DNA of 64,000 nucleotides from Balanoglossus misakiensis (taxonomy: Eukaryota; Animalia; Hemichordata), in NCBI GenBank assembly GCA_040954595.2, contig CM082587.2, forward strand, positions 3,232,275-3,296,274, written 5' to 3'. The notes beneath the pieces were generated by a model, which searched no databases, had not been told where the DNA came from, and was given only the letters and a program-made list of their open reading frames with translations. The translations under genes and the position numbers were made by a program. This document shows positions 35,884-64,000 of this stretch, in pieces (within the stretch, counting starts at the first letter, position 1; each line of letters begins with the position of its first letter).

Positions 35884-37943
35884 GGAACAAAAATAAACGC
35901 TTCTGGCATGTTAAACACTTTCATCTCAAGTTGCCTGAGTAGAGGTCCAACTTTGCCGTATAAAACAATAGATATGTGGTGAAATAGTTAACAGTAAAGA
36001 CCCTTTGCTATATGTTGGTTGCACACAATACATCAGTGTACTGTATATCATGGCACAAAATGTCCTAAAAGCGGTAGGATGGGGGGGTCAGGTTTTACAA
36101 TGTCGGACAAGGGGGAGGGTCACATTTTAGAGTCCAGGTGTACGCTTAATCACCTCGACCCACCCCCTTGAAAATACTGAAGGCTCCCTAGTTAAAAACG
36201 CACGAGTTCCCTGTGATAATTATAAGGCAGTGTGTCGTCAGTATACTTTTGGAATAAGGTTCCGAGGTCGGATCTCACGATAAATTTTGCCAGAATTTGA
36301 ATGATTGTGGTGACAATTTTGATGAGATATTCGAAATAAATTACTTGGCATTCTGCATGACGAGATAACGACATCTCTTCCATCATTCCGAAGGAAATGT
36401 CAACAAATGTTAACATTTTGCGACACAACTTCTGCGCATGACCTTGTGACACGTCAATCAGTCATCAGAAATAACGATAAAATCGTGGCGAGTAATTACT
36501 TCCACGTGGCATGAGATAATGAGTGTAGAATTGTGAACCTTTCCTTTCTTGGGAGAAACATTGTGATTAACTACAAAAAGATACAACTACGCAGTTATTG
36601 AGTCCATTGACTTTTGGTCTTCGAGTTCGATTTTGATGAGCATTTTTTTCCTGAATTCTCATTACGTCTCATTATCAACGTATTCTACCAAGTTAAAATC
36701 TTCTGTAAGGCCAAGCAATTTTGCTTTTTTTCTCAATGTAGAATTCAGCTGACACTTTCAAAACACACATTTGATAACCAAAAACAACCATTACCACCAC
36801 TCAACACCACCTCATCATCTCAATCTCATCACTTTCTTTCATTTTTGTTTTATTTTCGACAAATAAACAATGTTTTTGAAAATAAGGCAAACAACCATTG
36901 CAAACATTTTGTATTGATGGAAAGCAACAAGGAAAGAAGACAAATCTATATTCAAATATTTAGATTATGACGCGCATAAAACGTCATGAACTTCTAACAT
37001 CACGTAAAACACAATCTCCAACCCCCCAACCCCCATTACTGTTTTCTGTACGTCAATTGAAGTTGTATTATGCCCACCCCCTCTGATGATAACCTCCAAG
37101 ATGAGAAAATATTGAGAGCAGACCACACAATTCATTCTATAATAAGACATTTCATATATCCATGGCAGTGTTATCAATGCGAGGCATAGAGCTTATAACT
37201 AAACCGTGTTGTACGCGATGGCTATCTAACTTTAACCATGGACGTTACATGGCTTAGGATTCTGGTGATCAGTGGACTTAAGCACTCGTAAAAGACAATA
37301 GTGTCGAGAGCACAAACCAGACCAAAAAGTCTACGCCGTTTCAAGCCACCGCTGTTTCACCAGTGCAATATGAAATCATGGTGGGTTTTCAAGGGCTGAC
37401 AGTGGGTGGCATGCACAGATGTAAAAGATAATTCGGTAGCATAGTGATGACCATGTATTTGCGCAAAATCAATTACGACATCGAATTATTCCCTAATTTG
37501 TGCCTCCAAGCGGTGCTGTCGTGACATGCGTGCGGCAATGATCTCGCGTGAAACCAAAATGACGTCAGAGCCAGCTAATGCAACCCTGATCCATTTCAAT
37601 ATCTCGGGGCTACATTTTTTTTACGAAAGGAACTCTGGAAAAGCATGGGGATAAATTGACACCATGTCAAAGGCGAGTAGAAATGGCCCCAAGACATATG
37701 AAATAAAATTTAAAAAGAAATAGATGACGTTGGAGGGCGCACGTAAATGGTGGAAACTAAATCCTTCAGAAAAGGTTAACAAAACAGACGAATGCAACAC
37801 AATACATCAAAAAATAAAAGCATCCGTGGATCATGGTCTACAAAAAATAAAAAAGCACCTTGTGAATGTAACCGACTAAAAGAAGCACATATACACTACT
37901 GCGCATTTACTTAAAGATTCACACATGAGCAATGCGTGAGTGA

Positions 37944-37974
<31 letters not shown>

Positions 37975-38474
37975 TAGTTTATGCAGCAGCTCTGTCAGGA
38001 AAAACTGCAAAATATTTGGACAGCGCCACTTGTGGCAAGGTTTTGAATTTTCACTGTTTTCAGCCAAGGGTATACTCTACTCATTACCTCACATGAACAT
38101 TCATATACCCTTAAACTGCAATAAAAAGTGTTGAAACTCTCAATAACAAGTTTGAGTTGTCACTTTTGTATATATTTTCTGATATTGACCCTTTATGGGC
38201 AAAAAGTGGCCACAAAGTTAATTTCATCTTCATTGAGGTCAATAAGATTGCTTTTTCTGGAATCGACACCAATATTTACATAAAGCGGCCAAAACGGCAA
38301 GTCTGTCTTGAGTGAGGTCAAGAAGACTTTTTTGAATCAGCACCAATTTTTTTTACATAGAATGGACTTTTCAAACCTTCCTCGGCAAAAATTCTTATTA
38401 AATGCACCTAATCTCCTTGGCTACAACACCTTGTGTTTGTTGTTTATGAACAGAACCAGCAGACAAAAAGACAG

Positions 38475-39400
38475 GCACCAAATGGCTTTAAGGAAAGAGA
38501 GAACTTCTTCAAAACACTAAAATTCTTGATACTCAAGCATACAGGTGAGGGTTTGCTACTGATCGGAGGGGATTTCAACACAATCATGAATACAGAAATG
38601 GGTAGAATGGGTACAAAGTGTCATCTAAAGCAATGTAAAAAAATTTAATAGCATGCTAAAATGTCTTAAATTAATTGATATTTGGAGAATACTAAACCCA
38701 AATACTTTATGGTACACAAGGGGGGGGGGGGGGAGTAAAGCTAGGCATTGCAAGCAGAACATTGCTTTTTGTCAAGTATTGATTCTGCAGATATCAGACC
38801 AGCAATCAAAGCTGATCATAAAACCATGTCTTTGAAAATAAATTTAAAACAAAACTTTGGGGAGTACACATGATAGATGTGAATTTAGCAATAAAAGCCT
38901 TAAAATGTAGATGGGTGACAAGACTGGCAATATCTGTTATAATAATCTTGACAAAAGCGGAATAAATAGTATAACCGAAGGACTCCCAGGCTTCTACAAA
39001 CAGATATTACCAAATTGGTTTGAATTTCAGAAAAGTGAAACAAAAATGATACTCATACAGAGTTCTGTTGGAAAAGAAATTATCTAGGGAAATAATTTAA
39101 ATTACAGAAAGAAAATCTTGTTTTAGGTTTCATGCACATGGCAGATTTGGTCACAAATGGAAATTTTATCAAACAGAGAGAACTGTTGGAAAAATTAAAT
39201 TGCAAAAGAAATTGGATTGTACAATACTTGCAGATAAAGCAAGCGATTCCACATCAGTGGGAAAATGTATGATGCTGCCAAAAACCAATCTGAAGGTCAA
39301 CAAAAAGTATTTTTAAAAATCCGTATTGAAAAAGAATTTTGTGAGAAAGTACGTATATTTTTCCTGTAAGGATTTCTATTGGAGATTTGTCAGCAAAATT
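38475..39400 (+). mobile_element. Decayed L1/Tx1-like non-LTR retrotransposon ORF2 remnant
   Basis: APE-endonuclease motifs APN...RENFF, LLIGGDFN, LIDIWRILNP..WYT and ADH (SDH equivalent, ~38811), with frameshifts. Followed by sequence resembling the post-RT region (LPGFYKQIL..W; WIVQYLQIKQAIP..W). Confidence 0.8.
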
Positions 39401-39688
39401 GTGGAAAATCCCCCCCCCCCCCAATACCCGATGAAACGAGGCTAGTTTCCAAGGCTTTTTCAGGAATGACAGTAGAATTAACAGATCTTTTCTCAGACTC
39501 TCGAACCCGGAATAAACCTTACTGTTGAAGAAGACAACCTCCCCATCCTGCGATAAATTCGTATCCCCCATATTCGAGTAGCCATGATAAAATTTACCGG
39601 ACACGACGCTTTCTATGAAAAAAAAACCCTAAAATCGGACTGTCAACACAGAAATCAAATCGGACGATGAATAGCTCTCAAATCACAG

Positions 39689-40105
39689 CAAAAGAAGGCG
39701 ATACAAAAGCCTGAGGTAACGTGTTGAGCTGACCTGCGTTAACAGATCCCGTGAGGAGTACGGTGCCCAGAGTTCAACACGCCCCCCAAACTCCTGTGGC
39801 CTCTTTTGAACACAACTAATACAAGTTTAACGGTTTTTTGTGACAGAAACCCGGACCGTCCCGCCTTTGAATCTGGTAGCACGTACGAGTCTCTCACAAA
39901 CAGCGGGGTCTCGAACACGGCAGAACTCGCCAGAAAGCACGCGACTTGGCGAAAATATCGGCCCCTCACCGACTGCTAAGATAAACACGAATTAGATCTG
40001 GCGATCGGTGACCCGGAGCTGGCTATCAAGTAGGAATAAGGGGGAATAAATCAGGAAAAGTTGCACAGATCCGAAACTCCGTGTTCTCACTTCGAAAGAT
40101 ACCCC
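39689..40105 (-). ncRNA. Unclassified multi-domain structured RNA element (ncRNA or structured UTR)
   Basis: Three consecutive folding domains whose helices rely on many G-U pairs available only on the minus strand (see findings). Confidence 0.5.
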
Positions 40106-40150
40106 TCTTCTGAGCACATGCATGCTAAACATATGAACAAGAACGCGCCT

Positions 40151-40265
40151 CTGATTGGTGTAACAACAAGCCATGATCACTCACCAAGGGCGTGATAGGA
40201 AACTTCCCATATAGTACGTGATATCAGACCATACAAGCCGTCTTAGCAACAGGTACCATGGCAAC
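40151..40265. promoter_or_regulatory. Promoter-like cluster: CCAAT box plus two RFX X-box motifs
   Basis: CCAATCAG on minus (40158-40151); GTCTTAGCAAC 40240-40250; GGTACCATGGCAAC 40252-40265. Confidence 0.45.
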
Positions 40266-40734
40266 ACCATCACGCGAGTGAAACCATACAAGTACACCAT
40301 GCCAAATTAAAACAACGGAACAGTACGATTGCATAGGCCTATAGACACACTTTATTCCCTTAAACCGCAATATTAATGACAGTTTGAATTGTGAAAGTAA
40401 ACTCAATAATAATACGCAATAAAAATAGACCAGCGCTAACATATTTCTTGGTTTTGATTCGGACTGGGTCTGCACGTTGTGTATGTCAGCATTCATGATA
40501 GGCCTAAACCGTTCAAGGTGGTTTAGAAGATTGTCAAGTAGGCCTAATCGCAGATTATGCTGAATTGTGTTTACATTAAATAAGTTTTTAGTTCATCCAA
40601 GGGGATCAAATCACATAAACATTTTTCGATATCACTAAAATGTTCCGTTGAGGCTACTCCAAATGGCTTCACCAAGGCTACGAGCATGCCAACAAAGTTT
40701 TTTTCAGAGAAGATAAACTAATCAGTAACGATCG

Positions 40735-41021
40735 CACTGTCGAAGACACCCAAGGCAACAGAACCAGAACATTGTATGGCGTTTGAATATTTCGGTCAAC
40801 TTTGTAAAATGTCGTTTGCTGTCACGTTTTGCACGCTTACGCCGTACGATTTGACATTTTAAGACATCACTTCAACACCCGCACTGTCAAAGACATTCAG
40901 GCGCTGAGCTAGCAAAAACAGAACATTGTATGGCGTTTGAATCTTTCGGTTTCTATAACTTTGTAAATGCCGCTCTTCTGTCACGTTTTGCACGCTTCCG
41001 CGGCACGACTTCATATTTAAG
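40735..41021 (+). repeat. Two-copy diverged direct repeat (period ~147 bp)
   Basis: cactgtcRaagaca...cagaacattgtatggcgtttgaat...ctgtcacgttttgcacgctt recurs at ~40735 and ~40882. Confidence 0.9.
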
Positions 41022-41124: not shown

Positions 41125-41198
41125 TAGCCTGGTCACCATACCCAGTGTGTTTTATATAGACTCCTTGTAAATACACTGGGTATATGGTGACCAGGCTA
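41125..41198. mobile_element. 74-bp palindromic MITE with TAG...CTA termini (Academ-like)
   Basis: TAGCCTGGTCACCATA-CCCAGTGT ... ACACTGGG-TA-TATGGTGACCAGGCTA inverted repeat. Flanks agttgcccc / cattgcccc resemble a 9-bp TSD (7/9 match). Confidence 0.75.
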
Positions 41199-41659
41199 CA
41201 TTGCCCCATTTCCACGTTTGTTAAGAAGCCTTCGCCAGCTGATAAATGAATACAGCTCTGCGTAGGATGGCTATGCAGAAACGATGTTTCAAGGATTCGT
41301 GGCTACCTGCGGCCAAGTGAAATTCTTGTCGGATCTTCAAGCTTTCTAATTGCTAGGTTAACTGCGCCTTGCATCTCTCCCGTTCATGGACAGAGTGGAA
41401 TAACCAGCGCCTCCCATTCACAGACTGCTGAAACTGTTAACTTCTGAATGTGTTGGGCGTGTGTTAACTGACTTGCCAAGTGTTTTGTACAATGTTTGCC
41501 GTGGGCAATCACGTTTTAGATTGGTGAACGATGGAGTTTTTTTTATTTGTCGTACTTGATATATACCTATAAATCAGTGTTCCAAAGAAACAGGCATCAT
41601 TCGCAAAGTAGCCTTCTCTCGAAGTGTCTCTTACCGAGAGATTCTCCTCTGAAGCGACC

Positions 41660-42652
41660 ATGGCGGCCAACGATTCAGACGCTGTAGGTTTGAACGGTAC
41701 ATTTGATGTTCCTGCTGATCAACCCGTAAGAACCAAATACGAAGCTGGCGTTACGTCGGCTGTCGTACTCATCGGCATCGCCGGAGTCATCGGCAACGGT
41801 GTGGTGATGTTCGTGGTGTACAGAGCCAAGCAACTGCACACCATCACCAACTATTTCGTCGCCCACCAGGCGCTCATCGATTCCATATCATCGTTCCTAA
41901 TGATGTACCACTACGTCATCCCGATACCGAAACCACCAGCAGGCTTGGCCGGCCAGTTGATTTGCAAGCTCTGGGCGGCTCGGTTTCCCATGTGGACCAG
42001 CATGGTCGCATCCACCTACAATCTGGTGTTCTTGACGATGGAGCGGTACATCGCCATCGTCTTTCCGTTCACCTACGTGAATCTCCTCACCCCTCGAAGA
42101 TTGGTACCTATTTTCGTCGGCACCTGGGTCTTCGCCATCTTCTTCAACTCGCCGTACCTGGACCGAACGATCGCTCTGAACGGCCGCTGCCTATTCGTGG
42201 ATCCGTACACACCAGTCGTGTACAAGCTCATCGCCTCCTTCAGCTTCATCGTGCAATACTTTTTCCCGCTGCTCTTCATGTTTTTCAGCTACCTGCACAT
42301 CATACTGGTGATCACGTCAAAAATAACAGGCCGAGTCGGTCCCAACGCAGACCTGCCCCAAGCCCAGCAAGATTCGATGTCCACGGCTCGGCGCAACTTA
42401 ATCAAGACGCAGATTCTTGTCTGTACCGCCTTCGCCGTACTCTGGGCTCCGAATCAAATCTACTACTTCATTTATAACATATCGATTCCGGCCGACGTAC
42501 CCAGCTATTTTCACAACGTGACCGTGTGCATAGCCTATCTGAACAGTTGCATAAATCCCGTCATCTACGGCTTGAAATACAAGCAATTTCGCAACGGAGT
42601 GAAGGTTGCCTTCCCGTGCCTGGGCAACCGCGTTCACGATGTGGTCTTTTGA
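41660..42652 (+). CDS. Rhodopsin-class (class A) GPCR, galanin/allatostatin-A/somatostatin-receptor-like, intronless, 330 aa
   Basis: accATGg start at 41660; seven hydrophobic segments; GN in TM1, TM3 Cys, ERY, W in TM4, FxxLWAP, NSCINPVIY, helix-8 KQFR; N-terminal sequons NDS and NGT. Confidence 0.95.
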   Translation: MAANDSDAVGLNGTFDVPADQPVRTKYEAGVTSAVVLIGIAGVIGNGVVMFVVYRAKQLHTITNYFVAHQALIDSISSFLMMYHYVIPIPKPPAGLAGQLICKLWAARFPMWTSMVASTYNLVFLTMERYIAIVFPFTYVNLLTPRRLVPIFVGTWVFAIFFNSPYLDRTIALNGRCLFVDPYTPVVYKLIASFSFIVQYFFPLLFMFFSYLHIILVITSKITGRVGPNADLPQAQQDSMSTARRNLIKTQILVCTAFAVLWAPNQIYYFIYNISIPADVPSYFHNVTVCIAYLNSCINPVIYGLKYKQFRNGVKVAFPCLGNRVHDVVF

Positions 42653-45707: not shown

Positions 45708-46703
45708 ATGGCTGACAACGGAACAAGCGCAGATCTGTATAACGAGACGCTAACGGGCGGCTCTCCGGCCGTCAACACCAACTTCGAGACGGGCATCCTG
45801 ACAACGGTGTCCGTGATCGGCATCGCCGGAGTCATCGGCAATGCCGTGGTGATGTTCGTGGTGTACCGAGCCAAGCAGCTGCACAACATCACCAACTATT
45901 TCGTCGCCCACCAGGCGTTCATCGACTGCATCTCCTCCTTCTTCATTCTCTACCACTACATCCTCCCGATACCGAAGCCACCAGCGGGCGTGGCCGGCCA
46001 CTTGCTCTGCAAGCTCTGGGCGGCCCGATTCCCAATGTGGATGAGCCTGGTCGTGTCCACCTACAATCTGGTCACCTTGACGCTGGAACGCTACATCGCC
46101 ATCGTGTTTCCGTTCACCTACTTGAAGCTCTTCACACCGCGGCGGTTGATACCGATCTTCATCGGCACCTGGGTCTTCGCAACCCTCTTCAAGTCCGTCA
46201 ACCTCCTGCGAACGACCCTCTTGAACGGTCGCTGTGTGCACACGTTGCCGTTCACCCCGGCCGAATACAAAGTCATCGCTCTCTTCACGTTCCTCGTGCA
46301 GTACGCTTTTCCGCTACTGTTCATGTTTTTCGCCTATCTGCACGTCGTGCTGGTGATCAGTTCCAAGATAACCAACCGGGTCGGTCCCAGCAATGACTTG
46401 CCCCAAGTACAACAAGATTCCATGTCCACAGCTCGACGCAACGTCATCAAGACCCAGATGATTGTCTGCGCAGCCTTCGCCATACTCTGGGCTCCTAATC
46501 AATTCTACTTCTTCATCAGAAACTTTACCTCCGCTCACATACCCAACTATTTTCACAATGTGACCATAGTCATTGCCTTTTTCAACAGTTGTGTTAACCC
46601 GTTTATATACGCTTTAAAGTACAAGCAGTTTCATAGTGGCATGAAAGTTGCCTTTCGCTGTTCGGGCAGTAACAGCATTCAGAGTGTTACTACCGTGACA
46701 TAA
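45708..46703 (+). CDS. Rhodopsin-class GPCR, tandem paralog of 41660-42652, intronless, 331 aa
   Basis: Same motifs (GN, ERY, LWAP, NSCVNPFIY); colinear with the upstream paralog. Confidence 0.95.
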   Translation: MADNGTSADLYNETLTGGSPAVNTNFETGILTTVSVIGIAGVIGNAVVMFVVYRAKQLHNITNYFVAHQAFIDCISSFFILYHYILPIPKPPAGVAGHLLCKLWAARFPMWMSLVVSTYNLVTLTLERYIAIVFPFTYLKLFTPRRLIPIFIGTWVFATLFKSVNLLRTTLLNGRCVHTLPFTPAEYKVIALFTFLVQYAFPLLFMFFAYLHVVLVISSKITNRVGPSNDLPQVQQDSMSTARRNVIKTQMIVCAAFAILWAPNQFYFFIRNFTSAHIPNYFHNVTIVIAFFNSCVNPFIYALKYKQFHSGMKVAFRCSGSNSIQSVTTVT

Positions 46704-49929: not shown

Positions 49930-50437
49930 TGATAAATATTTCTTTGTGTGCTACATTCCTGTTGCAAGGCATTTCTTGACAGGCAACATGTTTTTCTTGA
50001 CTTAATATCATATGTATTTCAATACAGAACACGTTTATTTAGAATATTACTTTGAAAATGGTGCTCTGGTTCACGTCTGATAAAAGACGTTATTAATATT
50101 GTGAATTGGGAAGGTATACATATTGATGGTTAATTCAGTATTACTTGGAGGTTGTAATTGATATTTCTGTTTATGGAAATCTCATATTTGCAAGGCAATA
50201 AACTACATACAGAGTAAATGTAAAGTGGAGACCAGGAGTGGAGTAATATTTAAGGTGGCCTTAATAGTTCACGAATAATTCATTTAAGATTAAAACTTCA
50301 CATTATGTACTTTAAAACTGTCAGTTGGACATATTCATGACCACTGTATGAGCTTATGTCTTCGTATTTTGGCTGATATGTGGTTTCTGGCACTCAAACT
50401 GCATCCAGACTGACATCTCACAGAATGCCGGATGAAA

Positions 50438-53400
50438 TTACTTCTTTGTCATGGAGTCCTTCCATTCCCTGATAATCTTCTCTGCCTTGTCTAATGTGCT
50501 CTCTTCCTGTAAGTGTGACAGATTAGGGACTGTGTTGAGAAATACATGTTGTGCAAATCAGAATACAGTACACAGCAGAACCTCTCTCTGCCTGATTCCA
50601 TCCATGAATGAAAGAATACAATATCTGAGCTGACATACCTTGATGAAACAGAATCTGATGTAATTTTCTCCTAGGTGCTTGTGGTCTTTACTGTAAAATG
50701 CACTCGGGGGAATAGCACCAATTCCCTGTGGGATTGTGAAGATGAGTTCAGTGTCATGACACAATAATTGTATTAAATTCAATTGATTATGTTAATTAAA
50801 GTACAGCTTTTCGCTAATCTTAGGAGTACATGAAAAGTATTGATTTAAACTATGGTTTTATTAAAATGAAATTACTTAATTAGGCAGGCCAGTGGAGAAT
50901 GTATATGGCATTTCCCTATATTACCTTTTTCATGGTTAACCATCGAACCAACTTGTAATCTCGATTTCCTTCGCCAAGTTCAGGGTCATCCAAGTTTACA
51001 TCTGCAAGTAAGCATATAGACACCAGAGGAGCATTATGGGTAAAAAGTTGACCAATCTCTAACCTGTATTTCACCTCACAACTGAAAGCAGAAGTTCTCA
51101 CCTTGCAGATAGTTAATGTAAACTGACATGGCCAGAAATTAATTGAAACATGATCACTGCGAGTATAACTTTGATTCTGCTTATCAATTAATTGTCAGAA
51201 CATACCAATGCCAGATGTGTCAGCCATCATGAAATAGCCACCTTCGGGAATGATGGGTTTCATACCAACTTCTGCCAAAAACTTTCTCATTCTTTCTCGT
51301 TTGCCTTCCAACATGTCTGCCAATTCCTTAAAGTAGCTGTCAGGTTTATTCAGTCGGGCCATCTCGATCTCGAACCCTATTGCTGCAGCTTCCTATTAGG
51401 AGAAAGACATTGTGTGACTGTGGTAGAAAGTCTGTCTGTCTGTATGTCTGACTGTCTGTCCATCCATCTGCCTATTTGTCTCTCAGTTCACCTGTCTCTT
51501 TCTCTCTGTCTCCTTTGAGATAGCCACAGTGGGCTGAAATCTATTATATACCTTTATTTGATCTATTAAAATGTTGTGACGCACTAATCTTGCAAAATGG
51601 TGGAAGGATATGCATGAGACTGTAGAATCAAACTCGCACCACACATGAAATCATGTATCATGGAACTTACCTGGAGAGGGGTAGGAATTGTATACAGACT
51701 ATTCTGATGTACTGTCATTAAATGACGGATTAGGTGGGCTGGACCAAATGACCATCCAAGCTGATGAGAAAAAAAGGCGAATCATTGACTCTTCATATAC
51801 ATAAGTCATCCAAATGCATAACAGTCCTGTACCATGCATAAGGCATGATGTTGTCCCTATACCTGTCTGTGGTTTTCTAGCTGCGTATCCACACAGCCAT
51901 TATTGACAGTCCCGTGCACTCACCTTCCAGCCTGTAACGCTGAATGTTTTACCAGCACTGCCTATAGTTATGGTGCGATCCCACATTCCTGGCAAAGATG
52001 CTGTTTGGTAATGAAGGAAGGAAGTGTCAGTCTGGCCAAGTCTTGCTATGAAACATCACTATTTGACAACAAAGCTGTTAAGACCAATGCATCACCCATG
52101 TAATCAGCTATCAGTTTATTGGGCTAAATTACAGATCTCTGTGGCTGGTGTTAGATATCTGATGGCAGATTGCACGGCCAAGTAATAACATTTAAAGAAA
52201 TTTCCCCAAATATACAGAAATTTTAGTATGCCAAGTAACACTCACCCATTCTTACATGTTCACTACCAGAATACACCAGCCATTCATAAACTTCATCACT
52301 GATGCATATGACGTCGTGTTTCTTGCACAAGTCTGCCACCATTTCCAATTCACTTTTCTGAAATACCTGCAGGAATAGTTTGGGAACACAGAAAGGAAGT
52401 GATCAGAAACAATGTGGTGATTGCAATTTCAAGGTGCATTTTGTAATAGGTACACAATCAGATAGAACCGTTTTTTTTTTTTGGGGGGGGGGGAGTGGTT
52501 GATTAGTGGGAGGGGGAGGGGTTTGGTGATAGTGATGTATTGGTTTCTACTTACTTTCCCCAGGGGGTTGTTTGGAGTGTTTATGAGAAGAGCTTTGGTT
52601 TTATCAGTAAATTTGCTGGCAAGTTCCTCTGGATCTAGAACGAAATCTGTGGTCGACTGCACACCAGGATGTTTCTGAAGAGAGGGCGGTACAAAGGTCA
52701 AAGGTCAACAAATCAAACAGCCAAAAACATCAAAGAATATCAAATATGTGATATCTACAAGCCACTGTTGCCCCATGGGTAGAATTACACATACAACACA
52801 GTGCAGTAAAACAATAACGTGGTATACTTACTGGTCTGAGCGGGACAAATACTGGTGTTCCGCCAGCCATTTTGACCATGGGTTCGTAGCAGTCAAAGTA
52901 TGGCTCTATTATGATCACCTACATATACAAGAAAATGAAAGAAATGAAAAGTTTTCCATGGCTGTGAAAGAATCAATAGCCAATTCACAACTCTGACTCT
53001 TCCATACAATGCAGTCCAAAACAGGTTAGGGCAGTCAACCAGTCTGTCTCCTTTCTCTTAAAGTATTATTCTCATAATACTACATCTACTTTACAGGTTA
53101 CCTGATTCCCAACCTCAGCATGAATCCCACAGTGCCTTGCAATTTACCTCATCCCCATGATCGATCAATCCCATGATGCTGCAGAAGAGAGAATCATAGG
53201 CTCCAACAGTGCACAGCACTTCAGTGTTCTGGTTGATTTCTCTGCCAATCAACTGACCATACAGAGTGGCTATTGCCTTCACCAACCTTGGATGGCCCTG
53301 TAAAATAAAATACTTTTATTCAGGAGCATGCCACATGTAAGCTCAAAGGTGCGAGTCTTCAGTATGTAAATTGTCAAGTGGGGAGCCAAATTGTGTTTCA

Positions 53401-54068
53401 ATGTGCACATGAAACGAAATACTATCATGGCAACAGACCTCCGACACATGAATCAACTACTGTATTCACAGACTTACAAAACCCCTGGTGTATTGATGCA
53501 TCATGATATTATCACTGGTCACAGTCTTGGCTAAGGCATCCACCAGGTGGGCAGGTGCGGCAAAGTCCGGAAAACCCTGCAAAAAGAGACATTGGATCAA
53601 ACTTAAAATTTCAAAAGAAATGTTTAAAGATAATCCCCACATACATCCATTTATCATGTTTCATCAGGGATATCACAGGAATGTGCCTTGTTCCACCCTC
53701 CCATTGGAGATTACTGAAGGGAAAAAATGCTGAAAATCAGAGCATTTCATGTACATTTTGGATATTTACTCACCTGTCCAAGGTTAACAGGTTTATATTC
53801 CAAGGCTAATCCCACAAACTCAACCCTAAAAATATCAAGTATTATTTTACTCGGTTAATGCTGCAGGCATTGAAAACAGGGGTTATTGCTTAATTAAAAT
53901 CTTCATTTAAGTAAAGTATCATATTTGCGAACTTACCACACATTTTTGTCAAGTCCCTGGATTCTCTTGGCTGGGCCGTGCTTCTTAGACATTGTTGGGG
54001 CCTGTGAAAGTGTCAAATGAAACGCATGAGACAGACAGACAGACAGACGGACAGATAGACAGACAGAT

Positions 54069-54100
<32 letters not shown>

Positions 54101-54476
54101 AGTATGGAGAAAGATACATGTAAAGCAAGTAATTGTCTTGGAGAGGCAGAAGCGATGGTTAACCCATCCTGTCAATGGGCACATGTACATGCATACATGC
54201 ACCCATTCAATAAAATTAAAATGACATCAGAAAATGAACATCACCCCACTATACATGACAAATTTGAAGACAACTATATGTTTCCTCTGTCACGTTTAAC
54301 TACTGTAGATTACTGTAACCTTACACGTCACTCATTTTCAAAACAATTGTTCTGAAATCATCAGTACTTACAGATGAGCTGAAGTGAACTGGTTGATTGC
54401 TAAATAAAGAGTACGCAGCTGGATTAAGCACCCTACGTGATAGCTGTTTTATTGTGTGAATAGTGGCAAGCATCAT
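50438..54476 (-). CDS. KYAT3: Kynurenine--oxoglutarate transaminase (KYAT1/KYAT3 co-ortholog), 14 coding exons, 461 aa (423 aa from second ATG at 53992)
   Basis: Exons 54476-54372, 54001-53937, 53825-53774, 53576-53478, 53297-53148, 52918-52832, 52674-52555, 52366-52246, 52000-51924, 51760-51671, 51392-51206, 51001-50925, 50725-50639, 50506-50438; all GT-AG and in phase. Motifs [46 protein letters not shown]-lysine [22 protein letters not shown]. Confidence 0.95.
54028..54101 (+). repeat. (GACA)n microsatellite with variant units, in KYAT intron
   Basis: agacagacagac...ggacagatagac tandem array. Confidence 0.95.
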
Positions 54477-56266
54477 ACACCTGTATGAACAACTATTAGA
54501 AGAAATATATTCACTTAATGAGAATGTGACAGCATGGTGTGTTCCCATATTGCTTTCCATCTCACTTATTCAAGTGGCTTCTACGAGCAAGCTTACCAGG
54601 TTAACATGCGTCATGAAGTTACTAGAATCTACTCTCATGATATGCAAACAGACTAAAGCCAAACCAGACACCAAATGATTGTGAAAAATTGCTCAATTTC
54701 CACAAATGCCTGGTTTATAGGGGACCCTTTGACATACATGTAGTCCTAATAAAAGTCTAGAAAGTGTTTTTTAAGCTTGCTCCCCACACATGATATATAC
54801 ATGTATATTACTTGCACAGCACACAACTCCAAGAGGACTACCTGGTATCCTTGAGAGTCAAAAGCCTGCGCTATACAGCATGAAGCAGTAACTGCACCTA
54901 CAGGACAAAATGTAGTCAGTAAGTCTGCACATGAGTTTGTCAATAGCAGGTAGTTGATTCATAGGAGAAAAAATGTTAGATTTACTGGGGCTTTATTTTG
55001 GTGATAGATACGGTATATTATTAATTTTGCCAGGTTTCCCAACCATTACAATCTCCCTCTGTTGTATTGTGCTACGTGATCTTTTCAGTGAAATACTCAT
55101 TGCCCTATGTTTCCTGATCTGTGTAATCTCAGTAAAACATGTTCTAGCAAGCATTAATGCATCATGAACAATGAGAAAAAAAATGTGCGGAGGTTGAATA
55201 CTCATCATAAACAATAGACATTTTCTATAACTGCAGCTTTGCATGCATATAATGCCGGGTACACTGTAAACCTCTAAAGCTTTCATGTTTCATCTTGTTA
55301 TTTCATATTTTATTTTGCACAACTATGAATAGAACATTCTGAATGCTGACCAAGATTTTATCTGCCACAATCAAATCTGGGTCACTGCAAATCTGGGTCA
55401 CACTCATGCAACAACAGCCGAGTCTTGTTATTATTTCCCTCAATTTTCTCTCTCTTTGAGTTTGCCTCCTGGTCGAGTCGGGTTTATTGTAACCATGGTA
55501 ACGGTACACTTGGGCCGTATGCCGAAGCCCCCATGATTGTACACTGGAGTGGGTTGCAATCACGGATAAATCTTACAGTTACACATGGTTATTAAACTAC
55601 GGTATATGGTGGACGCACTTGTACTCTCACAGTCAGTGAAACTGCAAGTGTAAAATCATATCCAAACTCGAGATCATGTACAACAGTGTAACGATTTTAT
55701 AATCAACAGCGTATGTTAAACAAACCTTTCGACACTTCGCTCAGCCTGCAACTTGCTTTAATGTCTCCTCATCATATCCTTTCTCGGATTTATATATTGA
55801 ATATTGTTTGTAATTATATATACGAAGTTCACGCCAGACACAAACGGTGGTGGCGCTCCAACTTCCGTTTCAGGAGTGACCCAGTTCCCCTAACTTTATG
55901 AGAACTTGTATTTGCGTGCAATCGTGTGGTTCTCATAGCTTTTCAAAAATATATCGTATTTTATCATATGTTTCACGTGTTTAGTCACAGTCCCTCTATT
56001 ATCAGCCTTGCCGTCGGTAGAAACATGCATGCTTCCTCCAACAATCCACTGTATGATTTAATGTTCACAATTCAAAAGTTAGGCTACATATGTTGCTTCC
56101 TGTAAATCACTGGTTTATATATATTTTGCAGAGGATGGGGGGTTTGAGGTCAATATTTTCGGATCTAGACAGATATGATCGTCGCGTTTTGACCTATGAT
56201 CTATTGAACAGTTGAGCGGTTAAGCTAACACTGTCAAGATATATACGAAGGCCAAATGCGCCCCTA

Positions 56267-58544
56267 ATGTTCCACTGCAAAAGAACCATGTTCAAATTGT
56301 CTCTTGTAGTCTTGGCAACAGCAGCTCTGATTGGGTATTGGTTGTACTCGGGGATTGGTACAGGACTTTTGTTTCAGAATATTCTTTGGAATCGGCATAA
56401 TCTCGAAACACTCGTGGTTGACAGACTGCACTATGACTTGAGAAGCCATGAATTTACTTTGAAGAAGTCTGTCGACGGAACTGCCGTTTTGCAAGGCACT
56501 TTGGGAGAGTACTTCGATGACACAGAGGTACGGGAGTGTGAAAGCACTTTGCAAAACGGTTTCAGTCACTGCGCGGAGTTCCCACTCCAAGCTCGGCTGA
56601 GGATACTACACCAGCCCTCATCTGGAAACACAGACTGTTATGTCATTGCCTGGGAAGCTCTTGCCGGTGATGTTTGCCCACAAGATTGTCTAGATCTCTC
56701 GGATAGCCACTGGTATGGTGGCTCGGAGTTACTGCACCAGCACTGGCCAATCGAGAAGTCAAGCGTCCCTATGCAACCGTACCAGACCGCCGACGCCGGG
56801 CTCATACGCAATAAAACCACTTACGGGGGATTTCTCGAGAGATTTTTCGTGAATTCGAAAGGAGTCGGCGTCTTTGTCGACAGCTCAGTCCACTTGCACG
56901 CTAGCATAAACGAGAAGGGGGATGCAAAACTGTGCATCAAATCGAAAAGCTATGGCGACAGTTACCATGGGAACAAAGATTCAGATTTGAGATACACACT
57001 CTGTGTGGGCAATAATGTCAAAGATGTGTACACCTTCATGTCGCAGGAGTACCTGGACAACCCAGAAGGGATCCCCGACGAACGGATGTTCCGTTCCCCG
57101 ATTTGGTCAACGTGGGCCAGGTACAAAACCGCGGTCAACCAGACGAAAGTGATGAGCTTTGCTCACGAAATCAAAAGCCGCGGTTTCTCCAACAGCCAGA
57201 TCGAGATAGACGACATGTGGTCGCCGGCCTACGGCGATTTCGAGTTTTCTGGCGACAAATTTCCCGACGCACGGGGGATGGTTTCCGCCCTGCATGCCAT
57301 GGGATTTCGAGTCACCGCCTGGGTTATCCCTTTCACGGATTTGGATTCCAAAGCCTACAGAGAAGGGCGAGAGAAGGGCTACCTGGTCGCGGACAACAGC
57401 GAAATGCCGGTGCTAACAAACTGGTGGCAAGGCGTCGGTGCAATGATTGACTTTACAAACCCAGACGCCTGCCAATGGTTCCTTGGCAGACTTGATAAAT
57501 TGAGAGAAGTCGTTGGATTAAATTCTTACAAGATTGACGCCGGCGAAACTAATTTTCTTCCCGCCTCGATCAAGACCCACCGACTTCTGACAGACCCCGG
57601 CGACTACACAAAGTACTACGTCGACTGCGTCGCGAGACTGGGTCGCCAGATTGAGGTTCGCACCGGGTATCGAACTCAGAAGTATGCCGTCCACCAGAGG
57701 ATGTTTGACAAGGACTCGACGTGGGGCTACGACAACGGGCTGAGAACGGTGATCCCGACCGCCTTGGTGATGGGCGTCATCGGCTACCCGTTCACCCTCC
57801 CCGACATGATCGGCGGCAACGCCTACCACCCCGTCGACATCTCGATTACCGTCTTCCCGGAGAGGGAGCTCTTCATCCGGTGGATGCAGCTCACCGCTTA
57901 CCTGCCGTCCATGCAGTTCTCCCTGTCGCCATGGCAATATGACGACGAAGTGGTTGACATGGCGCTGAGGTTGGTTCAGGTTCACGAGGACGTGGTGGCG
58001 CCGATTGTGTTGAAAGCAGCCAGAGAGGCAACTGTGGCAGGTGCGTGTATCATGATAATAGTTCAGAGCACAGTTTCTGGAAACCAAAGGATGAAATTGA
58101 ACTTGAAGACAGTCGTACATCTGAAATAAATTTGAAATGGCTCTATTTGCGTTCCGAAGCATAGACTAACTTTTGCAAAACATCTAAGTTATATCCTAAA
58201 CTATGATATTCACACAGATTTATATTCTGAAAATTGGTTTATGTTCAGTGGAGAAAAAATTGACGTGTGTGCCTTGGTTTTCAGGTACACCGATCATCCG
58301 ACCGCTTTGGTGGATTTCCCCGGAAGACGAAGTTGCCCTAACAACGGATTCCGAGTTTCTCGTGGGTGACGATCTGTTGGTTGCTCCCATTCTCGACAGG
58401 GGTGGTCGAAGTCGTGATATCTACCTGCCGAACGGTCAATGGACAGACGACCTGCGCGGTGGCCAACACACAGGAGCGACGTGGCTGAATGACTACACAA
58501 TCGATTTGCATGAGATCGCCACTTTCACAAGGGTCAAGAAATAG
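56267..58544 (+). CDS. MYORG: MYORG-like GH31 glycosidase paralog 1, 2 coding exons, 677 aa, catalytic residues intact
   Basis: Exons 56267-58040 and 58285-58544 (phase 1). N-terminal TM anchor; motifs HWYGG, PIWSTWARYK, QIEIDD, nucleophile YKIDAGE (GAC 57536-57538), EVR, acid/base RMFDKDS, LPDMIGGN, PIIRPLWW, FLVGDDLLVAPI. Confidence 0.95.
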
Positions 58545-59766: not shown

Positions 59767-61974
59767 TTACTGCTCTTCCCTGGTAAACGTCGCAATCTCG
59801 GACAGCTTTACCCTATAGTCCCTAAGCCAGCGTTCGCCCTCGAAGTACCCTCCCCGGAGGCCGTCCCGCCATTTCCCCGGGGGCAAGTACACGTCCCGTT
59901 CCCTGGCCCCTTTATCCAGGATCGGCGCCACCATGAGGTCGTCGCCGACCAGGAACTGGTCGTCAGACTTCAGCGCGTTAGGGTCATCCGGGGCAATCCA
60001 CCACAGAGGTCGAATTATTGGTGACCCTGAATTGAATAGAAATGTAGAAACGAATAAAATATACAAGAAAATATATATGCTTGAAAACGGGATCAAGCGT
60101 CAAAACCCTCTCTTTGCAACTTTTAAAAAATCACCCCCCCCCCCAAATGTGGTCTCATTTAGTAGCGGCATTATAGCCTCACCTGTTTCCACGGCTTGTG
60201 CGGCAGCCTTTAACATGACAGAGGCGAGATTTTCGTGGACATGGACCATTTCTTTGGCGATGTTGAAAACCTCGGCGTTGTACTCCCACGGGCAAATTGA
60301 AAATGTCATCACAGGTAAATATGCGGCCAGTTGGACCCATCGGATGAGCAGCTCCCTCTCTGGCAAGACAGCCTTTCCCCTCCAATCACGTTCGGCGCCG
60401 TTCCCGCCAACTATTCCCGGCGCCACGAACGGATACCCCACAATTCCAGCCACGAAGGTGGCAGGGATTATCGACTTCAGCCCGTTGTCGTACCCCCATC
60501 GCCCGAATCTGTCGTAAAGTTTCACAAAGATGGGGAGGTTTTGAGTTCTGTGGGCGGTCTGTACATCAACCGTTCCTCCGAGTCTGGCGGCCATCTGGAC
60601 GTATTTGGTGCTGTACTCGTTGGGCGTGCGAAGTCCGTGCTGAACAACGTAACTTTCCGGTAGATAGTACACCTCTCCCGCCCCGAATTTAAATGTATCT
60701 ATACCGATTTCGTGCCGTAGCTTTTCCAGTCGGCCAACAAACCAATCCACCGCTTCATTGTTGGTGACGTCCAAGACCACGCAAAGGTCTGAATGGAAAC
60801 AGCTGATCACGGCCGGCGCACGCCCTTTGCCATCCTTGAGCCAGTAGTCGCGTTCCAGACCCACACCAAACGCCTCGGAATTCAGACTGGCAAACGGGGT
60901 GACCCACACACTCACGGTGGTGACCCCCATGCTGTGCAAACGATCGGTCATGCCCCGGGCATCGGGGAATTTCACCGGGTCGAATTCGAAATCCCCGTAA
61001 ACGCTCTCCCAGCCATTGTCGATGTGCAGGTGTCCCATGGGAAACCAGTTGCTGCTCACGTCGTCTGCAAGTTGAAGTACCCGGCTTTGGTTGACATCCG
61101 TCCGGTACTTGGCCCAGGTTGACCACACGGGATTTCTGAACAAGTCTGCGGAGGGGGCCTGTGTAGGACGATTGAAGTGTCTCTGCGACATGAACTGGTG
61201 AATGGTTCTGACGTTGTTCCCCAAGCACACCTGGTACTTTAACCTCAAGAAGGTGTCATCGGGGTTGTTGTAGAGTTTCGAATCATACGCTGTTTTGAGA
61301 CACAGCATCTGGTCGTCGTTGTTGGTGCTCACGTGGAGGGGGATGAAGTCATTGACCTTCACAGCAACTCCGCGAGAGTTCACCCAGTACCGCTCCACGA
61401 TGGAACCGAAACGGGTCGTCACCGACGCCTGCATCGGCATCTGGACGGTTTCGATCGGCCAGTGCTGAAAGAAAGACTCCGACCCGCCAAACCAATGTGC
61501 GTCCGCCATGTGCAGACAGTCCATAGGTATCACATCACACGCCAGAGAGGTCCATTCGATATCATAACAATCGATCAAATCGTACACTGAGTGAGCGATG
61601 GTGAGTTTGATCTTGTCTTCAACCTTCATGCAGACAGCATCGACAATATCCTCCGAATCCGTCTGCCTGAAGTCGCACTCTGTAAAACCTTCTTCAAAGG
61701 TCATACCTAAGCCATACGTGGCACGTAGCCTCTCCGTGTGCGAACGGTTCTTAACAACGAACTGGCCGCTGGTGGAATCAAGTATCATGTTGCCAACGAT
61801 CAGAGTATGGATTCCAACAGGGTTCAGGTCCTGTCTGCTCTCCTGAGAGCCAAGCCTTCCGGACGAGCACGGTATCTGGTACCAGCTAAGTAAAGACACG
61901 GTAAAAATGACGATAATGGCGAGAATAATCTTGGGAAGGTGTCCCAAGTTCGCGGCTTTCGTTGCTGCAGTCAT
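59767..61974 (-). CDS. MYORG: MYORG-like GH31 paralog 2, 2 coding exons, 683 aa, predicted catalytically inactive
   Basis: Exons 61974-60183 and 60026-59767 (same phase-1 intron and same 260-nt last exon as paralog 1). TM anchor and PVWSTWAKY present; nucleophile motif reads FKFGAGE. Confidence 0.92.
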
Positions 61975-62891
61975 TTTCAGACCTTCTCCAGACTCAGCTG
62001 CATGCCTCCTAAGTTCAATCAATGACACGACAAAAGACTCCGGTCACCTGCCTCGGTTGGGACGTCGACTTCATCTACCCGGTCTGGCGGATTTATGATG
62101 CCCTTCCGTTCGCTCCCGACCCGTTTCGGCGCACCTACGTCAAAATCCTTGGCTCATAGACCTGTATACCGATTGGTAACCTCTCCATGTAATACCCTTC
62201 GCGCATTCTTTAGCCCGGAAGCGTCAAGCTACAGTCGCAGTCTAGTCTGTGACTTGCAGACTAGCTGTGAACTCGTGTGACCTCAGTTGATCTCGTTATC
62301 AAGTCTCGCCGCCTCACACGAGACTTCATAACAAAGAGACTTCAATATTGCCGACAGCGAGCTTTGTGTGGATAATCAGAGTTTCTAAATGCGACAGCAC
62401 GAAATGCTTCCCAAATGTAAATTTGTAATTGTAGTCATTTCAAGTATAGCTCGAAGAATGGCTTGATTATTCGATTTGTATTGTATGACAGTACGTTTGA
62501 AGTGAGTGAGACCCAAGTACTCGCAAAGAATAAAGTCTACGACAAAGGTAAATAAAGTATGTTTACTCCGAACGATAAGCAAAAGCGAGGCTCAAAATAT
62601 TAACCATAAATTTCTCTCAGACAAATTTCATATGACAGGCATCGATAGCAATCCCACGAATGGGAACTGACGCACTGACATGTCACGGTCGCTCAAGGTC
62701 AGAGTTCACTGATGACATATTAACTAGCTTAAAATCTTTTCATGCAGCGGTAACACGCTTCTCTTACGATATTGCAATTTACGGGGATTTCTCGTCACAG
62801 GAGAACAAAGTACCAACACAGGTAACGAGGTAGTGCTTAAGACTTTGCTTTTATGAATCACCGTGTCTGTTATATGTCTTGATATCTCGCC

Positions 62892-64000
62892 ATGGCCAAG
62901 TCGGCTGTGCTGGTGCTAATCATTGCCATGGGAACGTGGTACTATTGGCCTCTTCTGGAAAAGTGGAGTGTCTTATTGGTTGATTACATTACTGGCAATG
63001 CCGTGCATTTCGACTTTGATGAAGGCACCCAGAAGATCGCCGTAAGAAATATCGAAGGCGAAGACGTGTTGCACATCAGGTTGGGGCAAAGGTCGGACCT
63101 TAATCAAGGGTCGGCCTCTTGTCCCCTGACCCCGAACGATGCGGACGTTTGCTTGGATTTTGACTGCGGTATGCAGTTGACGTTACGGGAGGAGACGAAC
63201 GATGGCGTCCTGTGCCTCGACGTCAAATGGCAAGCCACCAGACAAGGCGTGATACCGTCGGATTGTCTCGAGCTCGCCGGTGCTCACTGGTACGGCGGCA
63301 GTGGGATGTACCACCAGCGCTGGCCAATCGAGGAACTGGACGCTCCCATGCAGCCGTACGTGTCCTCTGACATCCTCCAAGATATCCACGGACAATTCAG
63401 GCGAAATTACGGATCGGTGATCGAGCGGTACTGGATAAACTCTCGCGGCGTGGGCATCGCCGTCGATAACTCCGTACCCTTGCACGTGAGCATCAACGAA
63501 GACAACGACGGACTGATGTGCTTTGAGGCCGAGTATGAAGAGTCGCCGTACCAGTACCAGAGCCAGAATAAATTCCCATTTCTGAGCTACCGTGTCTGCG
63601 CAGGTGACAACGTCAGAAACATCCACGAGTTCCTTTCCGATCGCTTATTCGATAAGCCCGATGGTATCCCGGACGAAAGAATGTTCAGGTCCCCCATCTG
63701 GTCGACCTGGGCGCGCTACAAGATGGACATCAACCAATCGACGGTGGTCAACTTTGCACGCGAGATAAAGAGATTCGGTTTCTCCAACAGCCAGATTGAA
63801 ATCGACGACATTTGGTCCCCCACCTACGGCGATATTAAATTCGTCAAGGAAAAGTTTCCCAACCCAGCCCTGATGGTTGCTACGCTGCAGCGTCTGGGTT
63901 ACCGGGTGACCGCTTGGGTCACGCCCTTTGCTAACACCGACTCCGAAGCATACGCCGAAGGGATGCGAGAGGGTTACTGGGTGATGGACTGCTCGGGAGA
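62892..64000 (+). CDS. MYORG: MYORG-like GH31 paralog 3, 5' part (runs off window; absent from the ORF track)
   Basis: gccATGg at 62892 after an in-frame stop; MAKSAVLVLIIAMGTWYYW anchor; HWYGG, ERYWINSRG, RMFRSPIWSTWARYK, QIEIDD, RVTAWVTPF; open to the window end. Confidence 0.93.
   Translation, partial: MAKSAVLVLIIAMGTWYYWPLLEKWSVLLVDYITGNAVHFDFDEGTQKIAVRNIEGEDVLHIRLGQRSDLNQGSASCPLTPNDADVCLDFDCGMQLTLREETNDGVLCLDVKWQATRQGVIPSDCLELAGAHWYGGSGMYHQRWPIEELDAPMQPYVSSDILQDIHGQFRRNYGSVIERYWINSRGVGIAVDNSVPLHVSINEDNDGLMCFEAEYEESPYQYQSQNKFPFLSYRVCAGDNVRNIHEFLSDRLFDKPDGIPDERMFRSPIWSTWARYKMDINQSTVVNFAREIKRFGFSNSQIEIDDIWSPTYGDIKFVKEKFPNPALMVATLQRLGYRVTAWVTPFANTDSEAYAEGMREGYWVMDCSG

What the first reader, a model, noticed from the sequence alone, without database searches (positions are those of the whole stretch)
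39689..40105. ~420-nt, three-domain structured RNA encoded on the minus strand, no family recognised
Seen (minus RNA). Domain I is closed by GGGGU(40105-01)/ACCCC(39909-05) and GAACACGG(40086-79)/CCGUGUUC(39920-13); it encloses a pyrimidine-rich strand, the hairpin GCUCC..UCACCGAU/GUCGGUGA GGGGC (40019-39961) and the hairpin UCGCCA/UGGCGA (39952-39927). Domain II is UUUGUGA-GAGACUCG/CGGGUUUC-UG-UCACAAA (39900-39837). Domain III is a ~120-nt rod (39808-39689): CAAAAGAGGC/GCCUUCUUUUG, then 14 contiguous pairs ACAGGAGUUUGGGG/CCUCAGGCUUUUGU (5 G-U), then CGUGUUGA/UCAACACG, capped by a three-way junction (CCGU/ACGG and GAUCUG/CAGGUC). More than ten pairs are G-U on minus and would be A-C mismatches on plus, which points to selection on single-strand structure rather than DNA palindromy. 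A CCAAT box lies ~50 nt upstream and a U9 run ~65 nt downstream. Inference: an undescribed ncRNA, an IRES-like leader or a mobile-element RNA. The layout (closed 5' domain, long arm ending in a three-way junction) loosely recalls telomerase RNA, but no CCCUAA template is present.
Basis: partly seen in the sequence, partly recalled or inferred. Interest (0 to 1): 0.82.

Follow-up and report, generated by a model that had tools for sequence, protein, structure and literature searches.

The report
7SK-like folded RNA, acorn worm
In what is likely an acorn worm, a stretch of about 400 bases is predicted to fold into an RNA with one solid 120-base arm and ends resembling 7SK, the RNA that restrains transcription in animals, but it lacks 7SK's key protein-binding motif, so it is at best a possible 7SK offshoot, likely cut from a small non-coding gene, and chance folding is nearly as likely.

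Summary
The pairings are in the sequence, on the minus strand of an acorn-worm-like genome. Only the 120-nt rod (39808-39689) is robust, and one shuffled 64-kb window gave an equally stable fold. It is not telomerase RNA, and Rfam has no hit. The U9 run reads better as the pyrimidine tract of a 3' splice site. CCAAT, TCT-like starts, alternating splice sites and a CpG-poor body downstream suggest a small non-coding Pol II gene. An RNA from G40086 to U39690 mimics the 7SK core: a 5' end with two alternative partners (open/closed), the AAAAG-AGGC...GCCU-UCUUUU foot, and a first hairpin resembling 7SK's. The strict UuGAUC/uGAUC motif and the short 3' hairpin are missing, and two 7SK covariance models miss it, so it is not filed as 7SK. 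Best reading (0.33): a 7SK-derived RNA cut from a Pol II transcript, like fly 7SK:94F. Rivals: chance (0.27), unrelated intronic structure (0.22). No homologue or expression data could be obtained.

The parts
40151..40158 (-). CCAATCAG, CCAAT box (likely Pol II promoter element)
   Evidence: 2 such octamers on the minus strand of the window; role inferred
40094..40099 (-). TCT-like initiator (C at 40098), candidate start, 60 nt after CCAAT
   Evidence: pattern is common: 121 on minus; inferred
40085..40093 (-). GAA|GTGAGA candidate 5' splice site at 40090; CGAAGTGAG (40094-40086) also matches the 7SK first 9 nt at 7 of 9
   Evidence: (rank 98 of 4026)
40079..40086 (-). GAACACGG, 5' octamer with two alternative partners (M1-like arm); proposed 5' end G40086
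40066..40071 (-). GAUCUG, first GAUC (nt 16 of the proposed RNA; nt 13 in mammalian 7SK)
40023..40060 (-). Unpaired pyrimidine strand; reads as branch point (CTGAT 40054-40050) + tract + TAG acceptor, or as a 5'TOP start (CTTTTCC at 40060)
   Evidence: rank 69 of 3484; 9 such heptamers on minus
39961..40021 (-). Hairpin carrying GAUCGCCAG-N5-AUUCG (like the top of 7SK HP1/M3); its stem hides the donor at 39969
39908..39920 (-). CCGUGUUC, the 'open' partner of the 5' octamer, overlapping GTTCGAGAC (B-box-like, the only one in the window)
39837..39900 (-). Domain II hairpin (22 bp, 3 G-U); hides the donor-like site at 39897
39808..39815 (-). UUGUGUUC, the 'closed' (M1-like) partner of the 5' octamer, directly before AAAAG-AGGC
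39689..39808 (-). Domain III: 120-nt rod capped by a three-way junction; foot CAAAAGAGGC ... GCCUUCUUUU resembles the foot of the 7SK 3' hairpin; proposed 3' end U39690
   Evidence: pair probability 1.0
39613..39646 (-). Candidate 3' splice site: branch TTGAC (39646-39642), T9 tract (39626-39618), CATAG
   Evidence: (rank 58 of 3484); inferred
39523..39612 (-). Candidate 90-nt exon with two ATGs (39585, 39571), donor at 39522, next acceptor 39289; no long ORF
37940..39240 (-). CpG-poor block (8 seen, 39 expected), read as a methylated gene body
   Evidence: meaning and strand inferred (T>A skew on minus)

Best explanation
The element is likely a 7SK-derived RNA of about 397 nt (G40086 to U39690) that would be cut out of the 5' end or first intron of a small, probably non-coding Pol II gene, keeping 7SK's end-closing core but lacking its HEXIM motif. 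Shown: the pairings, the motif matches, the splice-like sites and the CpG-poor block. Inferred steps: (1) Pol II starts about 60 nt after the CCAAT box. (2) The RNA is freed either by splicing from the donor at 40090 to the acceptor at 39613 followed by trimming, or by cleavage of the 5' end of the transcript. (3) The 5' octamer pairs beside the rod foot, bringing both ends together as in closed 7SK, and can flip to a second partner about 1 kcal/mol away. (4) The LARP7 La module would hold the UUUU end and the foot. (5) Without the U-bulged GAUC pair it would bind HEXIM/P-TEFb poorly, so it would act as a competitor for the core proteins or as a scaffold whose new 120-nt arm docks another partner. 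If released by splicing it would have no 5' triphosphate for MePCE to cap.
For: Rod foot against the Rfam RF00100 consensus pieces: 3rd of 10,355 local folds; the two above it are weak folds of -18 and -21 kcal/mol. Mammalian 7SK nt 1-108 (L006) ranks the element's 5' tile 1st to 10th of 606 under 12 alignment settings, and 1st of 68 GC-matched tiles in 11 of 12. A five-block + M1 descriptor scores it highest in the window on both strands (50.4; next 48.7; 7SK control 91); 3 of 135 simulated windows reach that score, as does 1 of 3,982 shuffled-motif sets locally. Open and closed folds are -126.9 and -128.0 kcal/mol, like the two pairings of the human 5' end (PMC5499737 passages). The fly 7SK 3' primer also implies a paired CC followed by UUCUUUU (PMC3384314 passage). 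Precedent: fly snRNA:7SK:94F is 404 nt, intronic, has internal T runs, an altered GAUC stem and a probable Pol II precursor (PMC8406779). Pol II context.
Against: The UuGAUC/uGAUC motif called strictly conserved (PMC5389472) is absent in every register: CC replaces UU and UAUC replaces the third GAUC. Part of the match lies in the loop that this paper calls unconserved, the reverse of what homology predicts. The short stem-bulge-stem-loop that LARP7 needs (PMC3632141; PMC4381077) is replaced by a long arm. Rfam gives 0 hits at E<=10. Models built from mammalian 7SK miss it: 0 of 25 hits in 20 kb and 0 of 11 in 64 kb. Window-wide blastn and nhmmer E-values are 5.5 and 11, and the 3' piece of L006 ranks the element 1255th of 2554. 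Full-length 7SK ranks it only 8th to 56th of 296. The descriptor blocks were chosen after I had seen the likeness, among many families considered. The closed fold is lost if the RNA runs to the T9 (P<=0.01) or starts at 40105. The splice chain is only 8th on minus and below the best plus-strand chain. No homologue and no expression evidence were obtained.
Confidence: 0.33

Rival explanations
1. Chance folding: G+U-rich, CpG-rich sequence next to a promoter happens to give one good rod, and the 7SK likeness is a product of looking through many families.
For: Whole element z -1.5; splice-bounded z -1.0 and -1.1; a shuffled window gives folds as stable as the rod; the minus strand is T- and G-skewed at 39501-40500, which favours G-U pairs; both covariance models are negative.
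Against: The rod, domain II and the first hairpin are adjacent (II+III z -4.5, 0 of 200); G-U:A-C is 9:1 in the rod; two separate 7SK matches, at the 5' part and at the rod foot, fall in the right order.
Confidence: 0.27
2. A real intronic structure unrelated to 7SK: domains II and III lie inside intron 39969-39613 of a TOP-type non-coding host gene and are either released as an orphan intron-encoded RNA (a Drosha substrate is a minor variant) or act in cis by hiding the donors at 39969 and 39897, so deciding whether the 53-nt exon 40022-39970 is used.
For: Donors rank 28, 34, 98 and 177 of 4,026 and acceptors 69, 58 and 34 of 3,484, in alternating order, two with branch-like motifs about 30 nt upstream. 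4 of the window's 61 minus-strand GTGAG lie in 290 nt here. The donors at 39969 and 39897 are predicted paired, 0.97 and 0.94. The longest ATG ORF over 1,084 junction chains is 105 aa, with no Pfam or homologue hit. snoRNA hosts start at a C in a pyrimidine run (PMC6954239 passages). The rod stem is about 34 bp.
Against: No C/D boxes or H/ACA ends frame the structure; no convincing snoRNA in the downstream introns (8 weak hits, none near its gathering score); intron z -1.0; the rod's capped end of about 50 nt is long for an animal pre-miRNA (recalled limit of about 40 nt); the splice scores use recalled frequency tables.
Confidence: 0.22
3. It is the animal's actual 7SK gene, transcribed by Pol III from about 40086-40093 to the T4 at 39693-39690, with a lineage-specific HEXIM site.
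For: Same motif evidence as the best explanation; starts with G and ends in UUUU; one B-box-like nonamer inside; length close to fly 7SK, 444 nt.
Against: No TATA-like word at -30; three internal T4 runs at 40059, 39955 and 39708; the motif kept from vertebrates to arthropods is missing; the promoter marks look like Pol II.
Confidence: 0.09
4. A decayed mobile palindrome or SINE-like insertion whose inverted arms form the rod.
For: Rod-shaped, and weakly folded on plus too (z -3.0); B-box-like word; a real DNA palindrome lies 1 kb away.
Against: No second copy in 64 kb; no target-site duplication seen by eye; G-U asymmetry 9:1, whereas the nearby palindrome has only 2-3 G-U.
Confidence: 0.07
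5. Telomerase RNA or a copy with a changed template; the unpaired loop holds a 1.7-copy 10-nt repeat at 40049-40033.
For: CCAAT upstream; closed 5' domain; rod with a three-way junction; an 8-bp pairing 40004-39997/39934-39927 could form a pseudoknot.
Against: The three acorn-worm TR rows seen all carry UAACCCUAACC and U-rich/A-rich pseudoknot strands (PMC8480181 supplement); none of this is here, and no H box follows the rod. The 14-mer covering the 10-nt repeat occurs only at this site in the window, with up to 2 mismatches allowed.
Confidence: 0.02

Closest known systems
Drosophila snRNA:7SK:94F (PMC8406779; passages, section 5 and supplement passages read)
   Same: About 400 nt, lies in an intron or at the 5' end of a Pol II non-coding transcript, internal T runs, altered GAUC stem, 5' and 3' ends brought together, 3' end 7SK-like.
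   Different: 94F keeps M3- and M8-like motifs, is expressed, conserved across Drosophilidae and binds P-TEFb components. Here the 3' hairpin is a 120-nt branched arm, and nothing is shown experimentally.
Vertebrate 7SK snRNA (Rfam RF00100; consensus and copy L006 seen)
   Same: 5' end with two partners (open/closed); M1-like helix followed by a 5-nt A-rich linker, AGGC/GCCU and a U tail; GAUCUG near nt 13-16; GAUCGCCAG-N5-AUUCG in the first hairpin.
   Different: No U-bulged GAUC/GAUC helix; different 5' sequence; pyrimidine strand before, not after, the hairpin; no 30-nt 3' hairpin; no TATA; middle part unrelated; the model does not detect it.
Non-coding 5'TOP snoRNA host genes, GAS5/U17HG type (PMC6954239 passages)
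   Same: Pyrimidine start candidates, short exons and introns, no long ORF, a structured stretch ending 77 nt before a 3' splice site.
   Different: No C/D or H/ACA snoRNA was found in the candidate introns.
Acorn-worm telomerase RNA (PMC8480181 passages and supplement rows)
   Same: Similar length (436-440 nt), closed 5' domain, arm with a three-way junction.
   Different: No template, no U/A-rich pseudoknot, no H box after the arm.

Membership tests
7SK snRNA | UuGAUC/uGAUC helix (HEXIM site) | tested here: not met
   GAUC at 40071, 40006 and 39998, none preceded by U; the third position reads UAUC (definition from PMC5389472)
7SK snRNA | M1 closure of the 5' end next to the 3' hairpin, with an alternative open partner | tested here: met
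   Predicted only: P 0.98-1.0 for starts 40086-40101 with end 39690; open form within 1.2 kcal/mol. Depends on unverified ends.
7SK snRNA | A-rich linker, AGGC/GCCU foot and U tail | tested here: met
   (3rd of 10,355 folds)
7SK snRNA | Short stem-bulge-stem-loop with G312/U313-type loop for the LARP7 xRRM | tested here: not met
   120-nt branched arm instead
7SK snRNA | Pol III type 3 promoter and clean T-run terminator | tested here: inconclusive
   No TATA-like word near -30; three internal T4 runs; no acorn-worm PSE was available to compare
7SK snRNA | Match to a 7SK covariance model | tested here: not met
7SK snRNA | Binding of LARP7, MePCE, HEXIM and P-TEFb | not testable with these tools
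   needs immunoprecipitation
Telomerase RNA | Template complementary to TTAGGG | tested here: not met
Telomerase RNA | U/A-rich pseudoknot; H box after the arm and ACA end | tested here: not met
   the ACA at 39643 coincides with the candidate branch point
Box C/D or H/ACA sno/scaRNA | Terminal C and D boxes, or H box plus ACA 3 nt from the end | tested here: not met
   an H-like A-run follows domain II but no ACA follows domain III
Vault RNA / tRNA-type Pol III gene | A box, B box and a terminator shortly after | tested here: not met
   B-like word at 39916, no A-box pattern, next T4 is 200 nt away; no tRNA
Animal pri-miRNA | About 35-bp stem, short terminal loop, precise 22-nt reads | tested here: inconclusive
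   Stem length fits; the capped end of about 50 nt does not (limit recalled); no reads available

The most novel reading that the evidence does not exclude
A 7SK offshoot in acorn worms that is released from the first intron of a TOP-type host gene, keeps the closed ends held by LARP7, has shed the HEXIM site and has replaced the 30-nt 3' hairpin with a 120-nt branched arm: a LARP7 RNP with a job other than holding P-TEFb, and a 7SK-type RNA made by splicing.
Probability: 0.18. Interest if true: 0.75.

Novelty: new variant of a known kind. Interest (0 to 1): 0.45.

Why it matters
If the 7SK link is real, this would be a second lineage, after flies, with a Pol II-derived 7SK paralogue. It would give a natural test of which parts of 7SK are separable: the LARP7/MePCE end core against the HEXIM switch. 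It would also supply a hemichordate seed for 7SK searches in echinoderms and acorn worms. The held literature has no paper with both '7SK' and 'hemichordate', 0 for 7SK + deuterostome + HEXIM and 3 with both '7SK' and 'Saccoglossus' (one opened, it does not describe an acorn-worm 7SK). The three surveys of invertebrate 7SK (Gruber 2008, Marz 2009, Yazbeck 2018) were not seen; from recall they include an acorn-worm candidate, so part of this may be in print. If the link is false, the finding is one ordinary intronic hairpin.

Tried and rejected
No whole genome is held, so copy number and a second 7SK locus could not be checked. No RNA holder was listed, so no reads were laid; this says nothing on expression. 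Rfam: 0 hits at gathering in 64 kb and 0 at E<=10 in two stretches over the element; one truncated plus-strand hit at E 9. The one metagenome scan gave 10 loci: 3 mammalian-type 7SK copies and 7 without a 7SK hit, none a relative of the window. The pattern was shaped with recall of 7SK, so finding 7SK there is by construction and served only to obtain a control. Viral contigs 0, phage records 0. tRNA 0 and no tandem repeat here; the bacterial promoter/terminator scan found 0 and does not apply. Pfam: 0 of 38 nearby frames (38 of the 123 listed); the 105-aa frame had 0 of 3 candidates at E<=1. Earlier findings by relatives, words, sequence and near place: none. Considered by eye from recalled family features, and dropped because order or partner elements do not fit: U17/snR30 (m1-like 40039-40031 and m2-like 39836-39830 are 200 nt apart, no terminal ACA), U18-like antisense in domain II (no boxes), HDV-like ribozyme (P3 and P1 fail), RNase P/MRP (no downstream P4 partner), SRP RNA. 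A 13-bp helix 39745-39733/39652-39640 is within chance for 540 nt by my estimate.

Full report
Source. The window is animal DNA with intronless GPCR and GH31 genes. The GH31 protein's best hits are Ptychodera flava (69%) and Glandiceps talaboti (58%), so it is likely an acorn worm. No genome is held, so all tests are on the window alone.

Observation. The minus strand folds better than plus (-136 against -116 kcal/mol) but not clearly better than shuffles: z -1.51, 6 of 100. By part, domain I is at chance (z +0.2), the first hairpin and domain II are modest (z -2.8, -2.7) and the rod is strong (z -6.1, 0 of 200). Those boundaries were tuned. Tuned the same way, the rod is 8th of 30 pre-picked folds in the window, and one shuffled window produced z -5.4 and a -53.9 kcal/mol fold of 112 nt. 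The rod is therefore about a once-per-window chance event on energy alone. It keeps pair probability 1.0 in both longer contexts tested, and its 9 G-U to 1 A-C ratio leans to RNA-level selection (p 0.011, or 0.046 allowing for strand bias).

Known families. Rfam finds nothing. Telomerase RNA fails: the acorn-worm TR rows I saw have a UAACCCUAACC template and U/A-rich pseudoknot strands (PMC8480181 supplement rows; main-text passages); the element has neither, and no H box follows the rod.

The T9 is followed by CATAG and preceded by a branch-like TTGAC 30 nt upstream, so it reads as a 3' splice site. The 'pyrimidine-rich strand' has the same build (CTGAT, tract, TAG at 40023) and also begins with CTTTTCC, a possible TOP start. 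Donors at 40184, 40090, 39969 and 39522 and acceptors at 40022, 39612 and 39289 alternate and rank in the top 1-5% of sites (the frequency tables are recalled). A CpG-poor block follows at 37940-39240 (8 CpG against 39 expected; limits set by eye); the only other such block in the window, 50-55 kb, holds 4 of the 6 best minus-strand splice chains. Reading CpG loss as gene-body methylation is established knowledge for invertebrate deuterostomes, recalled. The chain here is only 8th on minus and below the best plus-strand chain, so the gene is likely, not shown. No junction choice gives an ORF above 105 aa (1,084 chains), and that frame has no Pfam or homologue hit. This is the layout of a non-coding TOP-type host gene (PMC6954239 passages), though no snoRNA was found in it.

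7SK likeness. The two folds differ by about 1 kcal/mol under constraint, and the closed one dominates for starts 40086-40101 with the end at 39690. Human 7SK has the same two-partner 5' end (PMC5499737 passages; PMC10083321 passages; PMC4381077 passages). The closure is followed by AAAAG-AGGC and the rod ends GCCU-UCUUUU, against CAaaugaGgC and GcCucucuuU in the Rfam consensus; this foot ranks 3rd of 10,355 local folds. A mammalian 7SK 5' domain (L006 nt 1-108) ranks the element's 5' tile 1st to 10th of 606 under all 12 settings tried. A chained descriptor puts it first in the window (3 of 135 simulated windows and 1 of 3,982 shuffled-motif sets reach its score).

Against 7SK. The motif that defines 7SK, UuGAUC/uGAUC (PMC5389472 passages), is absent: CC stands for UU and UAUC for the third GAUC, while part of the match sits in a loop that paper calls unconserved. 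The short 3' hairpin needed by LARP7 (PMC3632141 passages) is replaced by the 120-nt arm. Two models built from mammalian copies miss it (0 of 25 hits in 20 kb; 0 of 11 in 64 kb); both rest on one or two near-identical sequences, and L006 has an altered 3' end, so they are weak tests. Plain searches give E 5.5-11 and full-length 7SK ranks it 8th to 56th of 296. There is no TATA-like word at -30 and there are three internal T4 runs. The descriptor blocks were chosen after I saw the likeness, after going through many families by eye, and a genome has only one or two 7SK genes, so the prior is low. It is not filed as 7SK.

Mechanism. The reading that joins both sets of clues is a 7SK-derived RNA freed from a Pol II transcript. 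The proposed 5' end lies 4 nt inside the donor at 40090 and the 3' end 77 nt before the acceptor at 39613; the two inner donor-like sites are predicted hidden in stems (0.97, 0.94), though the inner acceptor tract is open. Fly snRNA:7SK:94F is a precedent: 404 nt, intronic, internal T runs, GAUC changed to GAUG, probably cut from a Pol II lncRNA (PMC8406779 section 5; passages). Every step after the sequence features (start site, release, protein binding, function) is inferred. I give this 0.33, chance folding 0.27, an unrelated intronic structure or splice switch 0.22, a true Pol III 7SK 0.09, a mobile remnant 0.07 and telomerase RNA 0.02.

Literature limits. Gruber 2008 and Yazbeck 2018 are not held, and Marz 2009 was seen only as a reference and through other papers' accounts. 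Their alignments and supplements of invertebrate 7SK bear directly on this claim; from recall they include an acorn-worm candidate. Searches for 7SK with hemichordate, with Branchiostoma + Lottia, and with deuterostome + HEXIM found 0 papers; with Saccoglossus 3 were listed, of which PMC8704543 was opened (passages) and does not cover this. Searches were seen as listings. PMC3384314 and PMC12439597 were seen as passages.

Verdict. The rod is real sequence and probably real structure, the three-domain model as a whole is not supported by folding statistics, and the 7SK likeness is a lead worth one synteny alignment and one Northern blot. Novelty: new variant of a known kind if true. Interest 0.45.

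Noticed in passing
window 41125-41198: 29-nt inverted repeat with a 16-nt spacer; the strongest hairpin in the window, on both strands, with few G-U pairs: a DNA palindrome, MITE-like.
   Followed up: partly
window 40733-41018: Tandem duplication of about 150 nt at 77% identity.
   Followed up: no
window 41624-42652 and 45708-46703 (+): Two intronless rhodopsin-family GPCR genes, 79% alike in DNA.
   Followed up: partly
window 56267-58129 (+), 60100-62028 (-), about 63200-64000: Cluster of intronless GH31 / MYORG-like genes; a third copy seems to begin near 63200.
   Followed up: partly
window about 50000-55300 (-): CpG-poor block with the best minus-strand splice chains, likely a multi-exon gene, not identified; a CCAATCAG lies at 56334 on minus.
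   Followed up: no
window 40049-40033 (-): Direct repeat UUAUUCC-CCC-UUAUUCC in the unpaired strand, shaped like a template with terminal redundancy; no matching repeat array in the window.
   Followed up: partly
window 39585-39523 (-): ATG in a strong context opens 21 Arg/Ser-rich codons without acidic residues up to the donor at 39522, like a mitochondrial leader, but no downstream coding exon was found.
   Followed up: partly
window 40209-40185 (-): Short frame beginning M-G-S-F-L-S before the strong donor at 40184, like a myristoylation start (motif recalled); no open continuation found.
   Followed up: partly
window 39586-39498 (-): A-box-like and B-box-like words about 75 nt apart just downstream; possibly a decayed tRNA-type SINE (seen by eye).
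   Followed up: no
window 40004-39997 with 39934-39927 (-): Perfect 8-bp complement between the top of the first hairpin and the small downstream hairpin: a possible pseudoknot or switch.
   Followed up: partly
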